IMG/VR virus record: IMGVR_UViG_3300009177_000720
Length of the DNA stretch: 64,000 bases
Origin: a virus
Strand: one strand, 5' to 3'
The notes beneath the pieces were generated by a model. That model was not told the DNA's origin. It saw only the letters and a program-made list of their open reading frames with translations, and did not search any database. Shown in pieces: positions 17,603 to 18,524 of the stretch. Each line of letters begins with the position of its first letter. Positions within the stretch are counted from its first letter, which is position 1. The position numbers and the translations under genes are program-made.

Positions 17603-17947
17603 TCAACTTTTTAATGCAAGTTGAAGTCGGCTACACAACTTCTTACTCTTAGGTCCAGGGGCCAAAGCAATAGCTGTGATTTGATCCTCAATATCAGGTT
17701 CTCTAAAAATAGAAAATTTGATATCCTGTTGAACAGCCATTGAAATCAAATCTTGCAATTCAATTTCGTTGGCTACAGAAAGAAGACCTAGATAGTTTGA
17801 TTGCTCAAACCATTGTCGATCCACCTCGGGATGCTCGGCAGTAAACTGGCGCAAAGCATGCATTGACTGCACTGCTTGGTAGCCAGGATCCAAATCCGAA
17901 CGAGTAATCACATACAACTTATCGCCCTCTTTAATCTATAGAGACAT
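17603..17947 (-). CDS. Pth2-type peptidyl-tRNA hydrolase with in-frame TAG at codon 4
   Basis: KLYVITRSDLDPGYQAVQSMHA...FREPDIEDQITAIAL; AGGAG-5nt-ATG TCT CTA TAG ATT AAA is in frame with the ORF-track TTG at 17917. Confidence 0.85.
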
Positions 17948-18524
17948 TGTTACTCCTAAATAACTTTTGGCAAATAGCTTTGCCACGCTTGTTGATTTGA
18001 TTCCATTTGATTTTAAAGGAGGTGGAATCGGTACCCCCAAACATCTTAGCGTTGGCATGAACTTCAGCCAGCCCAGCTAGAAGAAGAGTGCAAGCTTCAG
18101 GATAAGTAATGAACTCATCGATGTCGCAAGCCTTCATGGTATGAATCATCATATCCATCTTCATAAGCTTGGCAGCCGCACAACTACCTCCCACTTCCAG
18201 CCATGTCTTGGATGAGATGTCAGCATGGTTAGGAAAATGAGTTCTACCATTCTCATCGATTGACTTACAATAAGGCTTACCACAATCGTGATAAATTGTA
18301 TACTCCTCGATGATATCCTGAGGCAGGAGGGCGCTAAGAATTTGTTGATTGTATTCCGAAAGCCAATCAGGCAATCTCCAGTCTCCTGTGATTTGACCGG
18401 TTTTCAAATAATCAATCAATTGAAAAATATGCTCTTTAACCGAGAGACCATGCTGGAAAATAGACTGGCCTTTGGCTTGTTCACATTGTTGCATGTCTTG
18501 GATGAGTTGAAGCTAGGAGGGCAT
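17931..18524 (-). CDS. HD-domain phosphohydrolase with in-frame TAG at codon 4
   Basis: QSIFQH...YHDCGKP...HFPNHA; GGAGG-9nt-ATG CCC TCC TAG CTT CAA is in frame with the ORF-track ATG at 18494. Confidence 0.82.

What the first reader, a model, noticed from the sequence alone, without database searches (positions are those of the whole stretch)
17936..18524. Identical SD-ATG-NNN-NNN-TAG architecture in two adjacent, unrelated genes
Seen: the HD gene reads GGAGG-cactctaac-ATG CCC TCC TAG CTT CAA (TAG 18515-18513). The pth gene reads AGGAG-taaca-ATG TCT CTA TAG ATT AAA (TAG 17938-17936). Both starts sit at the upstream gene's stop and have strong SDs, and both lie exactly 10 codons upstream of, and in frame with, the ORF-track starts. 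Established: very short minigenes (lambda bar) cause peptidyl-tRNA drop-off that Pth must recycle. Inference: the OFF state makes 3-codon minigenes (MPS, MSL), so the lock is cheap and could also feed back on peptidyl-tRNA load. Automated annotation would miss these N-termini.
Basis: partly seen in the sequence, partly recalled or inferred. Interest (0 to 1): 0.85.

Follow-up and report, generated by a model that had tools for sequence, protein, structure and literature searches.

The report
Stop-codon-gated tRNA-care genes in jumbo phages
Two neighbouring phage genes for tRNA-end maintenance enzymes each carry a conserved UAG stop a few codons after the start, so they are probably made only when the phage's own stop-reading tRNA is active, and the same arrangement occurs widely in giant phages and may explain their 'orphan' suppressor tRNAs.

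Summary
The HD-like gene (18524..17931, minus strand) reads SD-ATG-CCC-TCC-TAG. The PTH2 gene (17947..17603) reads SD-ATG-TCT-CTA-TAG. Two CUA-anticodon tRNAs lie 0.9-1.1 kb downstream on the same strand.

Four independent assemblies carry the same TAG in the HD gene, and one also carries the PTH2 TAG, so this is not a sequencing error.

In IMG/VR phage contigs, 34 of 66 distinct PTH2 starts and at least 39 of 55 distinct HD starts have an early in-frame TAG. Cultured phages XacN1, Xoo-sp13 and RsoM2USA also have it, and the CBB group has a TAG at codon 47.

Codons after the TAG evolve as coding sequence. Most PTH2 relatives have no alternative start.

Gated PTH2 genes co-occur with a nearby tRNA-CUA (30/34 against 7/32). 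The gate codon tracks the neighbouring suppressor: TAA with tRNA-UUA, TGA with tRNA-UCA.

In the complete Xoo-sp13 genome the only early-TAG gene found is an HD-PTH2 fusion.

Best reading: suppressor-tRNA-dependent readthrough gates a tRNA 3'-end maintenance enzyme pair. The reason for the gating is inferred only.

Other first-stage notes on this genome had flagged this stretch and its UAG leader.

The parts
17931..18524 (-). HD-type phosphohydrolase gene (197 codons counting the TAG). ATG 18524-18522, in-frame TAG 18515-18513 at codon 4, stop TAA 17933-17931.
   Evidence: AF2 model has pLDDT 93.6, and residues 4-13 form a confident helix. Nearest solved fold is the class-II tRNA nucleotidyltransferase C-terminal region, 3wfo_A: Z 14.8, rmsd 3.2 A, 160 residues aligned. 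Foldseek gives E 5e-3 and the profile search gives E 2e-3. H25, H79-D80, D124 and H128 are invariant. No Pfam hit.
18534..18538 (-). Shine-Dalgarno GGAGG of the HD gene, 9 nt before ATG 18524.
   Evidence: An SD before the upstream ATG is detected in most relatives. No SD-like sequence is seen in the 14 nt before the downstream ATG in any homolog.
18513..18515 (-). Gating UAG of the HD gene (codon 4).
   Evidence: Conserved in all 12+6 close relatives. Present in at least 39 of 55 distinct HD-family contexts.
17603..17947 (-). PTH2-family (peptidyl-tRNA hydrolase 2-like) gene, 114 codons counting the TAG. ATG 17947-17945, in-frame TAG 17938-17936 at codon 4, stop TGA 17605-17603.
   Evidence: Pfam PF01981 scores 28.2 bits against a cut-off of 23, E 2e-6, covering residues 10-102. 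phrog_1866 matches from residue 7.
17953..17957 (-). Shine-Dalgarno AGGAG of the PTH2 gene, 5 nt before ATG 17947.
17936..17938 (-). Gating UAG of the PTH2 gene (codon 4).
   Evidence: Conserved in all 11 close relatives. Present in 34 of 66 distinct PTH2-family contexts. In relatives the window's TTG 17917 is CTT or CTA, and the next canonical start lies 15-29 codons downstream.
16451..16523 (-). tRNA with CUA anticodon (amber suppressor), copy 1. Generic class-I backbone, C73, C31-U39 mismatch.
   Evidence: ARAGORN. Rfam tRNA 60.5 bits. Same backbone type in nearly every relative.
16670..16741 (-). Second, unrelated tRNA with CUA anticodon and an unusual 9-nt T-loop.
   Evidence: Rfam tRNA 39.9 bits against a gathering score of 29. 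Missed by ARAGORN. Many relatives also carry two CUA tRNAs.
18888..18995 (-). Leader ORF at the head of the operon: MKTLSDYL, then UAG (18971-18969), then IGSRAPPG... Its TGA overlaps the ATG (18891) of the next gene as ATGA.
   Evidence: A leader with TAG followed by R(A/G)PP is conserved in L001, L002, L004 and L023, and also in L024 and L026, whose HD and PTH2 genes lack TAGs.
18526..18891 (-). First gene of the operon (121 aa from ATG 18891), function unknown.
   Evidence: called as 121 aa in independent contigs. Only a sub-threshold Pfam hit.

Best explanation
The two TAGs are programmed, suppressor-tRNA-dependent gates.

How it works: ribosomes start at the strong SD-ATG and reach UAG at codon 4. 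If RF1 wins, a tripeptide (MPS or MSL) is released and nothing more is made. If one of the phage's own CUA-anticodon tRNAs, encoded 0.9-1.1 kb downstream in the same orientation, decodes the UAG, the full-length protein is made. Output of both genes is therefore conditional on, and roughly proportional to, suppressor activity relative to RF1.

What is gated: an HD-type phosphohydrolase whose nearest solved fold is the HD-containing part of tRNA nucleotidyltransferase, and a PTH2-like peptidyl-tRNA hydrolase. They form one functional unit acting on tRNA 3' ends and are a single polypeptide in XacN1 and Xoo-sp13.

Shown here:
- The TAGs are real, conserved, and specific to these gene families.
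- The codons after the TAG are under protein-level selection.
- No alternative start exists for PTH2 in most relatives.
- The gates co-occur with cognate suppressor tRNAs.
- The gate codon matches the suppressor anticodon.

Inferred:
- Readthrough actually happens, and which amino acid is inserted.
- The purpose. My preferred purpose (about 35-40%) is feed-forward coupling. A cell in which stop codons are being suppressed accumulates ribosomes that run past terminators and stall, along with aberrant peptidyl-tRNAs. The clean-up enzymes would then be produced in proportion to suppression. They sit beside a phage tmRNA and behind a UAG-dependent arrest-peptide leader.
- Placing the gate in the first 2-9 codons makes failure cheap. 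It also puts the ambiguous residue in a variable N-terminal position.
For: 1. The TAG is conserved in all 12 HD and 11 PTH2 close homolog loci at 60-87% aa identity, always 1-8 codons after an in-frame ATG, most of which have a detectable SD.

2. Census with controls. Window: TAG 3, TAA 0, TGA 0. Seventeen related loci: TAG 26, TAA 0, TGA 0. Whole Xoo-sp13 genome (309 kb): one early-TAG gene, the HD-PTH2 fusion.

3. Translation of the post-TAG segment:
- Pairwise divergence by codon position is 0.27/0.14/0.41 for PTH2 and 0.44/0.30/0.60 for HD. The downstream domains show the same pattern.
- TAG-free homologs have sense codons there: MATIKxGDKLY, VLDLQQLIADM, MSDPLAIHQLIVDM.
- AF2 places HD residues 4-13 in a confident helix.

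4. In most PTH2 relatives the first canonical in-frame start after the TAG lies 15-29 codons downstream, with no SD-like sequence in the 14 nt upstream. Starting there would delete the first beta-strand and the conserved TR-DL motif.

5. Cognate suppressors:
- Two CUA tRNAs in the window.
- One or two in every close relative whose locus is not cut at a contig end.
- One in RsoM2USA, CBB and Xoo-sp13, and two in XacN1 (PMC5852040).
- 30 of 34 gated against 7 of 32 ungated PTH2 contexts have a tRNA-CUA within 5 kb (Fisher p 6e-8, not corrected for phylogeny).

6. Covariation of gate codon and anticodon:
- L135 has an early TAA in PTH2 with a tRNA-UUA immediately downstream. Its syntenic relative L133 has TAG with tRNA-CUA.
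- Only 2 of 80 loci have a tRNA-UUA.
- L222 HD reads ATG-ACA-TGG-TCG-TGA, has two tRNA-UCA genes nearby, and has no other TGA in the ORF.
- L158 and L173 PTH2 have an in-frame TGA with tRNA-UCA nearby.

7. Context. The base after the gating TAG is A 24, C 6, G 5 and T 0. From my own knowledge of E. coli studies, A at +4 favours amber suppression and U favours termination.

8. TAG terminates only 4 of 96 window genes and 14 of 245 long ORFs in Xoo-sp13, as expected for a genome that lives with a suppressor.

9. Functional unity of HD and PTH2. XacN1 ORF364 residues 1-176 match HD (E 3e-46) and residues 181-263 match PTH2 (E 4e-13).
Against: - No experimental or read-level expression evidence was obtainable. 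Readthrough is inferred from comparative data only.
- The tRNA-CUA genes lie downstream in what looks like the same transcription unit. The gate is therefore not an obvious temporal switch driven by separate transcription.
- TAG-free HD/PTH2 pairs also sit next to a tRNA-CUA (L024, L026), so the suppressor does not strictly require these gates. In those loci the UAG leader is present.
- Some gated genes have no suppressor within 5 kb: 4 of 34 PTH2 and 13 of 39 HD contexts. In cultured phages the tRNAs do lie elsewhere in the genome.
- The suppressor's amino-acid identity is unresolved.
- The HD gene keeps a conserved internal Met (M11), so a low level of internal initiation cannot be excluded for HD.
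- The association statistics are not phylogenetically corrected.
- For L158 and L173, genome-wide TGA recoding is not excluded (one search was uninformative).
Confidence: 0.8

Rival explanations
1. The ATG-NNN-NNN-TAG units are genuine tiny upstream ORFs that end at UAG. The proteins are made by reinitiation or independent initiation at a downstream start (ATG 18494, TTG 17917, or a non-canonical codon right after the stop). No suppressor is involved.
For: HD keeps a conserved Met 7 codons after the TAG in nearly all homologs. The window's PTH2 TTG 17917 has a GAGG 8 nt upstream. In PTH2 the codon after the TAG is often ATT or ATC, and it aligns with the start Met of two TAG-free homologs.
Against: - In most PTH2 relatives the TTG is CTT or CTA, and the next canonical start is 15-29 codons downstream without an SD-like sequence.
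- The codon after the TAG is GTT, AAC, CTT or AGT in many genes, and these are not start codons.
- The post-TAG codons evolve as coding sequence, and they are sense-coded N-terminal residues in ungated homologs.
- No SD-like sequence precedes HD's internal ATG.
- This rival does not explain why the stop codon matches the neighbouring suppressor's anticodon.
Confidence: 0.06
2. Neutral tolerance. Once a phage carries a suppressor tRNA, nonsense mutations are partly 'detoxified' and can drift to fixation. The TAGs would then be tolerated accidents without a regulatory role.
For: Borges et al. (bioRxiv 10.1101/2021.08.26.457843) propose detoxification by suppressors as the first step toward recoding. 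The gate sits at a variable N-terminal residue where any amino acid may be tolerated.
Against: - Drift would scatter stops over many genes and positions. In the census, which only detects gates ahead of at least 60 open codons, these two families hold the only conserved cases in 64 kb of window, in 17 related loci and in a complete 309-kb genome.
- The stops sit almost always in the first 2-9 codons.
- They persist across lineages at 38-88% identity.
- They recur with all three stop codons and at a different position in the CBB group. This indicates repeated selection.
Confidence: 0.08
3. First reader's add-on. The OFF state acts as a lambda bar-like toxic minigene. Peptidyl-tRNA drops off at the early UAG, loads the cell with peptidyl-tRNA (often on the CUA-reading tRNA-Leu), and this feeds back on the need for, or expression of, the phage peptidyl-tRNA hydrolase.
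For: The pre-stop leaders are 2-8 codons long. In that length range shorter minigenes accumulate more peptidyl-tRNA and are counteracted by Pth (PMC2490762). The last sense codon is CTA or TTA in 22 of 35 gates. One gated product is a PTH2-like enzyme.
Against: - No mechanism links drop-off to increased readthrough.
- The HD gene is gated at least as often as PTH2.
- PTH2 is gated by mid-gene TGAs in L158 and L173, and HD by TAG at codon 47 in CBB, where no minigene is formed.
- Leader peptides and last codons vary widely in the HD family.
Confidence: 0.1
4. Genome-wide TAG reassignment (code 15-like). The phage simply reads TAG as an amino acid everywhere, and the two TAGs are ordinary sense codons.
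For: Gene callers using TAG=Q produce full-length proteins for these genes. TAG is rare as a terminator.
Against: - Four window genes and 14 long Xoo-sp13 ORFs still end in TAG.
- Making TAG sense lengthens ORFs less than making TGA or TAA sense.
- Only two genes plus one leader in 64 kb, and one gene in a whole 309-kb genome, contain a convincing in-frame TAG.
- Within these ORFs TAG occurs once, at the 5' end.
Confidence: 0.03
5. Sequencing or assembly error at the two TAGs.
For: None found.
Against: The same HD TAG is in four independent assemblies of a 99%-identical phage, one of which also calls PTH2 through its TAG. TAGs are also present in dozens of diverged genomes, including finished cultured-phage genomes.
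Confidence: 0.01

Closest known systems
Stop-codon recoding with phage-encoded suppressor tRNAs as a regulator of late or lysis genes (Ivanova 2014; Borges et al., bioRxiv 10.1101/2021.08.26.457843; crAss-like, Lak and other gut phages)
   Same: In-frame stop codons in phage genes are decoded by a phage suppressor tRNA in a standard-code host. They are proposed to make expression depend on the suppressor. TAG is depleted as a terminator.
   Different: - In those phages, many stops are spread through many structural and lysis genes. Here there is a single stop in the first few codons of one specific enzyme pair, plus a leader, in otherwise standard-code genomes, and TAG is still used as a terminator.
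- The targets here are tRNA-maintenance enzymes rather than lysis genes.
- The gate codon switches with the local suppressor (TAG/CUA, TAA/UUA, TGA/UCA).
prfB (RF2) autoregulation by an early in-frame UGA
   Same: A stop codon near the 5' end of an ORF works as a sensor of decoding versus termination capacity. It controls synthesis of a translation factor at little cost.
   Different: prfB is rescued by a +1 frameshift stimulated by an internal SD, and it senses its own product. Here the downstream frame is the zero frame, rescue is by a dedicated suppressor tRNA, and the products are not release factors.
Engineered suppressor-tRNA gates (for example the coherent feed-forward 'leak dampener', PMC7969014; sup-tRNA circuit control, PMC13276491)
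   Same: A target gene carries amber codons so that it is expressed only when a co-supplied suppressor tRNA is present. This is the same logic as the natural arrangement proposed here.
   Different: Those circuits are synthetic and use separately induced tRNAs. The natural module has the tRNAs in the same gene cluster and a conserved biological target.
Lambda bar and other toxic minigenes (peptidyl-tRNA drop-off, relieved by Pth; PMC2490762)
   Same: An SD-ATG followed by 1-7 sense codons and a stop, and a thematic link to peptidyl-tRNA hydrolase.
   Different: The 'minigene' here is the in-frame 5' end of a real gene whose downstream codons are translated. Drop-off or toxicity has not been shown. 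Gates also occur mid-gene.
Orphan suppressor tRNAs of standard-code jumbo phages (XacN1, PMC5852040; Atu_ph07, PMC6102473; phage G, PMC12484599)
   Same: Same kind of phage, and XacN1 itself. These are tRNA-rich jumbo phages carrying suppressor tRNAs.
   Different: The XacN1 study looked past terminal ambers and reported that no target could be identified. Here a target is identified at the 5' end of XacN1 ORF364 (ATG AAG TAG) and its homologs.

Membership tests
Suppressor-tRNA-dependent in-frame stop decoding in phages (recoding or programmed readthrough) | A conserved in-frame stop codon inside a gene whose downstream codons are under coding selection | tested here: met
Suppressor-tRNA-dependent in-frame stop decoding in phages (recoding or programmed readthrough) | A phage-encoded tRNA whose anticodon is cognate to that stop | tested here: met
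   Covariation TAA/UUA and TGA/UCA.
Suppressor-tRNA-dependent in-frame stop decoding in phages (recoding or programmed readthrough) | Demonstrated readthrough product | not testable with these tools
   No proteomic or ribosome-profiling data.
Genome-wide alternative code (code 15-type recoded phage) | The stop codon is abandoned as a terminator and is frequent in frame across many genes | tested here: not met
   TAG ends 4 of 96 window genes. Only 2 genes plus a leader hold an in-frame TAG. One gene does in the whole Xoo-sp13 genome.
PTH2 (Pfam PF01981) peptidyl-tRNA hydrolase 2 | Match to the family model above its curated cut-off | tested here: met
   28.2 bits against a cut-off of 23, residues 10-102 on profile positions 2-104 of 115.
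PTH2 (Pfam PF01981) peptidyl-tRNA hydrolase 2 | Catalytic residues and hydrolase activity on peptidyl-tRNA | not tested
   Invariant K6, R12, D14, Q23, H26 and D81 are listed, but they were not mapped onto a solved PTH2 active site. Activity is unknown.
HD-domain metal-dependent phosphohydrolase superfamily | H...HD...D metal-binding motif conserved | tested here: met
   Invariant H25, H79-D80, D124, H128 and H156.
HD-domain metal-dependent phosphohydrolase superfamily | HD fold | tested here: met
   3wfo_A has Z 14.8, rmsd 3.2 A and 160 residues aligned. It is followed by PhnZ, PgpH, GppA, YfbR and OxsA at Z 8-10. Foldseek gives the same top entries.
HD-domain metal-dependent phosphohydrolase superfamily | Match to a curated sequence family (Pfam HD models) | tested here: inconclusive
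   No Pfam hit even at E 10. Only phrog_14850, of unknown function.
Lambda bar-type toxic minigene | SD-ATG, a few sense codons, then a stop | tested here: met
   Leaders are 1-7 codons, mostly 2.
Lambda bar-type toxic minigene | A stand-alone mini-ORF whose function is peptidyl-tRNA drop-off and tRNA sequestration | tested here: not met
   The stop is followed in frame by a conserved coding sequence. Gates also occur mid-gene. Drop-off itself is not testable here.
prfB-type frameshift autoregulation | The downstream ORF lies in the +1 frame relative to the early stop | tested here: not met
   The downstream coding sequence is in the zero frame.
Termination-reinitiation (translational coupling at a stop-start overlap) | A usable start codon at or next to the stop | tested here: not met
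   The codon after the stop is ATT, GTT, ATC, CTT, AAC or AGT. The next canonical start in PTH2 relatives lies 15-29 codons downstream.

The most novel reading that the evidence does not exclude
Jumbo and huge phages carry a self-contained lock-and-key module. A suppressor tRNA (CUA, UUA or UCA) is the key. A matching stop codon within the first few codons of a tRNA 3'-end maintenance enzyme pair (HD phosphohydrolase plus PTH2, sometimes fused) is the lock. In this window's clade there is also a UAG-dependent arrest-peptide leader.

This module would be the main, previously unrecognised protein-coding target of the 'orphan' suppressor tRNAs of standard-code phages such as XacN1. It would tie tRNA clean-up capacity to the level of stop-codon suppression in the infected cell.
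Probability: 0.55. Interest if true: 0.85.

Novelty: new variant of a known kind. Interest (0 to 1): 0.8.

Why it matters
1. It gives a concrete, testable target for suppressor tRNAs in standard-code jumbo phages. For XacN1 the authors reported that none could be identified (PMC5852040).

2. It shows a natural version of the suppressor-tRNA gate that synthetic biologists build. The gate is placed at the extreme 5' end, where failure costs a di- to octapeptide.

3. It corrects the annotation of a widespread phage gene pair. Starts are mis-called, or the gene is split into two CDSs, in GenBank records and most metagenomic protein sets.

4. It links an HD phosphohydrolase to PTH2 as one functional unit acting on tRNA ends. 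That points to tRNA 3'-end repair or clean-up as something phages regulate tightly.

5. The cultured phages XacN1, Xoo-sp13, RsoM2USA and the CBB group make all of this directly testable.

Tried and rejected
- Whole genome of the window: none is held.
Read mapping was therefore not done, and four independent assemblies were used instead.
- Complex prediction on HD plus PTH2 (alignments A2 and A3): no verdict, score 0.00. This counts neither for nor against binding.
- Pfam on the HD protein: no family even at E 10.
- Nucleotide search of GenBank phages with the 3.4-kb region: only tRNA-sized hits.
- Amino-acid identity of the suppressor from similarity to each phage's own tRNAs: unresolved. The best match is tRNA-Lys(UUU) at 0.79 in Xoo-sp13 and Asn, Val or Phe elsewhere.
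- Initiator-like features in the CUA tRNAs: G1-C72 and no three G-C pairs in the anticodon stem, read by eye. UAG as a start codon was rejected, also because the SD spacing points to the ATG.
- Stop-hopping or bypassing: no matching landing codon after the TAG (by eye).
- Third window candidate at 15827 (ATG GAA TAG ATG): not conserved in relatives, so chance.
- Apparent in-frame TAG at 14219: by eye it is out of frame within an overlapping ORF that looks like a sugar nucleotidyltransferase.
- UAG plus RAPP-type leaders in Xoo-sp13 (whole genome) and in the fetched parts of XacN1, RsoM2USA and CBB: none found.
- Stop-to-stop ORF comparison to test TGA recoding in L158 and L173: uninformative.
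- GATATATA as a promoter motif: 5 hits, all on the coding strand, but 11 of 100 shuffles reach that count.
- The sigma-70 and terminator scan gave nothing decisive for operon boundaries.
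Full report
**1. What is in the window**

The window looks like part of a large tRNA-rich phage.
- 90 of 96 candidate genes lie on the minus strand and GC is 41%.
- There are 13 tRNAs, a tmRNA, and a CUA-anticodon tRNA.
- No whole genome is held.

On the minus strand the HD-like gene reads GGAGG, 9 nt, ATG CCC TCC TAG CTT CAA CTC ATC CAA GAC ATG. Its ATG is at 18524 and its TAG at 18515-18513. The PTH2 gene reads AGGAG, 5 nt, ATG TCT CTA TAG ATT AAA GAG GGC GAT AAG TTG. 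Its ATG is at 17947 and its TAG at 17938-17936. Both ATGs lie 30 nt upstream of the mechanical ORF starts.

**2. Is it more than chance?**

I counted every stop codon that is followed by at least 60 open codons with coding potential and preceded within 10 codons by an SD plus ATG.
- In the window: TAG 3, TAA 0, TGA 0. The third TAG case (15827) is not conserved in relatives and is dismissed.
- In 17 non-redundant related loci: TAG 26, TAA 0, TGA 0, and all 26 are in these two genes.

TAG is otherwise a rare but functioning terminator. It ends 4 of 96 genes, each followed by a short, non-coding extension. Treating TAG as sense lengthens ORFs less than doing the same for TGA or TAA. The genome is therefore not wholesale recoded.

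**3. Conservation**

All 12 HD homolog loci and all 11 PTH2 homolog loci from IMG/VR have an in-frame TAG 1-8 codons after an in-frame ATG, and an SD is detectable before most of these. Most of these contigs are 100-480 kb, and the proteins are 60-87% identical to the window's.

Four independent assemblies of a 99%-identical phage carry the same HD TAG, and one also calls PTH2 through its TAG. This excludes a sequencing error. Database proteins that show 'Q' at this position come from gene calling with TAG=Q.

**4. The codons after the TAG are translated**

- Divergence by codon position in the six codons after the TAG is 0.27/0.14/0.41 for PTH2 and 0.44/0.30/0.60 for HD. The downstream domains show the same pos3 > pos1 > pos2 pattern.
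- TAG-free relatives have ordinary sense codons there. HD reads V-L-D-L-Q-Q-L-I-A-D-M or M-S-D-P-L-A-I-H-Q-L-I-V-D-M. PTH2 reads M-A-T-I-K-x-G-D-K-L-Y, against the gated M-S-L-TAG-I-K-E-G-D-K-L-Y.
- AlphaFold places HD residues 4-13 in a confident helix (pLDDT about 90).
- The window's TTG 'start' of PTH2 is CTT or CTA in most relatives. Their next canonical in-frame start lies 15-29 codons downstream with no SD-like sequence in the 14 nt upstream. Starting there would remove the first strand and the conserved TR-DL motif.

PTH2 can therefore be made only by reading through the TAG.

**5. The key: suppressor tRNAs**

- The window has two CUA tRNAs: 16451-16523, and 16670-16741 at Rfam 39.9 bits, which ARAGORN missed.
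- Every close relative whose locus is not cut at a contig end has one or two just downstream of the gene pair.
- In a wider survey of the PTH2 family, 34 of 66 distinct N-terminal contexts are TAG-gated. Of these, 30 have a tRNA-CUA within 5 kb, against 7 of 32 ungated ones (Fisher p 6e-8, not phylogenetically corrected).
- In the HD family at least 39 of 55 distinct contexts are TAG-gated, and the commonest leader is just ATG-NNN-TAG.

**6. Covariation of lock and key**

- L135 has ATG GCT TAA at the start of PTH2, with a well-formed UUA-anticodon tRNA immediately downstream.
- Its syntenic relative L133 has ATG ACG TAG with a CUA tRNA in the same place. The two tRNAs have different backbones, so this is a replacement rather than a point mutation.
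- Only two of 80 loci have a tRNA-UUA. The other, L114, is a TAG-gated gene without a CUA tRNA, and a UUA anticodon can also read UAG.
- L222's HD gene reads ATG ACA TGG TCG TGA, has two UCA tRNAs nearby, and has no other TGA in the ORF.
- L158 and L173 have in-frame TGAs in PTH2 with UCA tRNAs nearby. Genome-wide TGA recoding is not excluded for those two.

This matching is what decoding by the neighbouring suppressor predicts. The uORF, reinitiation and drift models do not predict it.

**7. Cultured phages**

- XacN1 ORF364 begins ATG AAG TAG.
- Xoo-sp13_327 begins ATG AAG AAG TAG.
- RsoM2USA_91 begins ATG AAA TCG TAG.
- The CBB/GAP32/BF group has a TAG at codon 47 that splits the gene into two annotated CDSs.

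All of these phages encode a tRNA-CUA (PMC5852040). The XacN1 authors looked downstream of terminal ambers and concluded that no target of the suppressors could be identified.

In the complete 309-kb Xoo-sp13 genome my census finds exactly one early-TAG gene, and it is this one. Distant huge phages LR745206 and LR756500 show the same gates.

**8. What the gated genes are**

- PTH2 matches Pfam PF01981 above its cut-off.
- The HD protein has no Pfam family but keeps the H...HD...D residues.
- Its model is closest to the C-terminal region of a class-II tRNA nucleotidyltransferase, 3wfo_A: Z 14.8, rmsd 3.2 A, 160 residues aligned. Next come HD phosphohydrolases and the HD-like tRNA-binding domain of bacterial GlyRS beta.
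- In XacN1 and Xoo-sp13 the two are one polypeptide: HD at E 3e-46 and PTH2 at E 4e-13.

They are therefore a functional pair, and I infer that both act on tRNA 3' ends. Enzymatic activities are untested.

**9. Operon context**

A short leader sits upstream at 18995-18888. It reads MKTLSDYL, then UAG, then IGSRAPPG... Its stop overlaps the next gene's ATG. A leader with TAG followed by R(A/G)PP recurs in relatives. These include L024 and L026, whose HD and PTH2 genes have no TAG but which still keep a tRNA-CUA.

I confirmed only its presence and conservation.

**10. Mechanism and purpose**

Shown:
- A conserved, family-specific early stop.
- Coding selection beyond the stop.
- Cognate suppressors nearby.
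- Covariation of stop codon and anticodon.

Inferred:
- The suppressor competes with the release factor at codon 4, so HD and PTH2 output follows suppressor activity.
- The base after the gating TAG is A 24, C 6, G 5 and T 0. From my own knowledge of E. coli work, this is the context that favours suppression over termination.

The purpose is speculative. I favour feed-forward coupling of tRNA and ribosome clean-up to the amount of stop-codon suppression. The module sits beside a phage tmRNA and behind a suppression-dependent leader. Other possibilities are a delay until phage tRNAs accumulate, dosage limitation, or feedback on the suppressor itself.

It is not needed to explain the data, and mid-gene gates do not fit it.

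**11. Novelty**

Searches of the held literature found three related bodies of work: whole-genome recoding, synthetic suppressor gates, and jumbo-phage papers that list suppressor tRNAs without targets. None describes an early-stop gate on these genes.

I rate this a new variant of a known kind: suppressor-dependent stop decoding used for regulation. Its distinctive features are a single 5'-proximal gate, a dedicated enzyme-pair target, standard-code genomes, and codon-anticodon switching.

Noticed in passing
window 17468-17540 (-): A tRNA-like element directly after PTH2. Rfam tRNA scores 28.2 bits, just under the gathering score of 29. It has an 8-nt anticodon loop (UUAUGAUAA) and an imperfect acceptor. 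It could be a decoy, a frameshift-type tRNA or a decaying tRNA.
   Followed up: partly
window 16670-16741 (-): A second CUA-anticodon tRNA with a 9-nt T-loop. ARAGORN missed it, but Rfam scores it at 39.9 bits. Several relatives also carry two unrelated CUA tRNAs, so UAG may be read as more than one amino acid.
   Followed up: partly
window 18888-18995 (-): Leader ORF MKTLSDYL, UAG, IGSRAPPG..., whose TGA overlaps the next gene's ATG (ATGA). A TAG followed by an R(A/G)PP arrest-like motif is conserved in L001, L002, L004, L023, L024 and L026.
   Followed up: partly
L028 (XacN1 243735-244595) and L031 (Xoo-sp13 243153-244019): HD and PTH2 are fused into one ORF of about 286 codons that begins ATG AAG TAG or ATG AAG AAG TAG. 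The GenBank CDSs start at the downstream ATG.
   Followed up: yes
L030 (Pectobacterium phage CBB 286338-286904): The HD homolog has an in-frame TAG at codon 47 and is annotated as two CDSs (CBB_407 and CBB_408). The same 'x2' annotation appears in GAP32, BF, the fHe-Yen9 phages and the Erwinia SNUABM phages. A tRNA-CUA lies about 3 kb downstream.
   Followed up: partly
L135 5312-5386 and L133 5344-5418: Syntenic phages with a TAA gate plus tRNA-UUA in one and a TAG gate plus tRNA-CUA in the other. The two tRNAs are only 54% identical, so the suppressor gene was replaced rather than mutated.
   Followed up: yes
L222 (HD, TGA at codon 5); L158 and L173 (PTH2, in-frame TGA): Opal-gated versions with tRNA-UCA genes nearby. 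Whether L158 and L173 are TGA-recoded overall is unresolved.
   Followed up: partly
L002 about 3970-4010: The HD gene has a 6-codon duplication just after the TAG. The second copy has TAC where the first has TAG.
   Followed up: no
window 21241-21596 and 21791-22178 (-): A phage tmRNA (tag ANDNAFAPVALAA) next to four tRNA-Thr isoacceptors. The same tmRNA / tRNA-Thr / HD-PTH2 / tRNA-CUA / tRNA-Arg(CCU) order is conserved in relatives.
   Followed up: partly
window 19004-19011, 16433-16440, 14849-14856, 33350-33357, 58320-58327 (-): GATATATA occurs five times, always on the coding strand and in intergenic positions. Similar 'GGATATATA' strings precede HD in L014-L021. The count is not significant (11 of 100 shuffles).
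   Followed up: partly
window, all genes: TAG terminates only 4 of 96 candidate genes (TAA 58, TGA 34), consistent with avoidance of TAG in a genome that carries amber suppressors.
   Followed up: partly
L094 (Tenacibaculum phage pT24 BPT24_235): A TAG-free HD homolog with an N-terminal extension of about 85 residues. This may be why phrog_14850 is 270 positions long. Another 270-aa database entry (P0111) looks like a TAG=Q read-through fusion with the upstream ORF.
   Followed up: no
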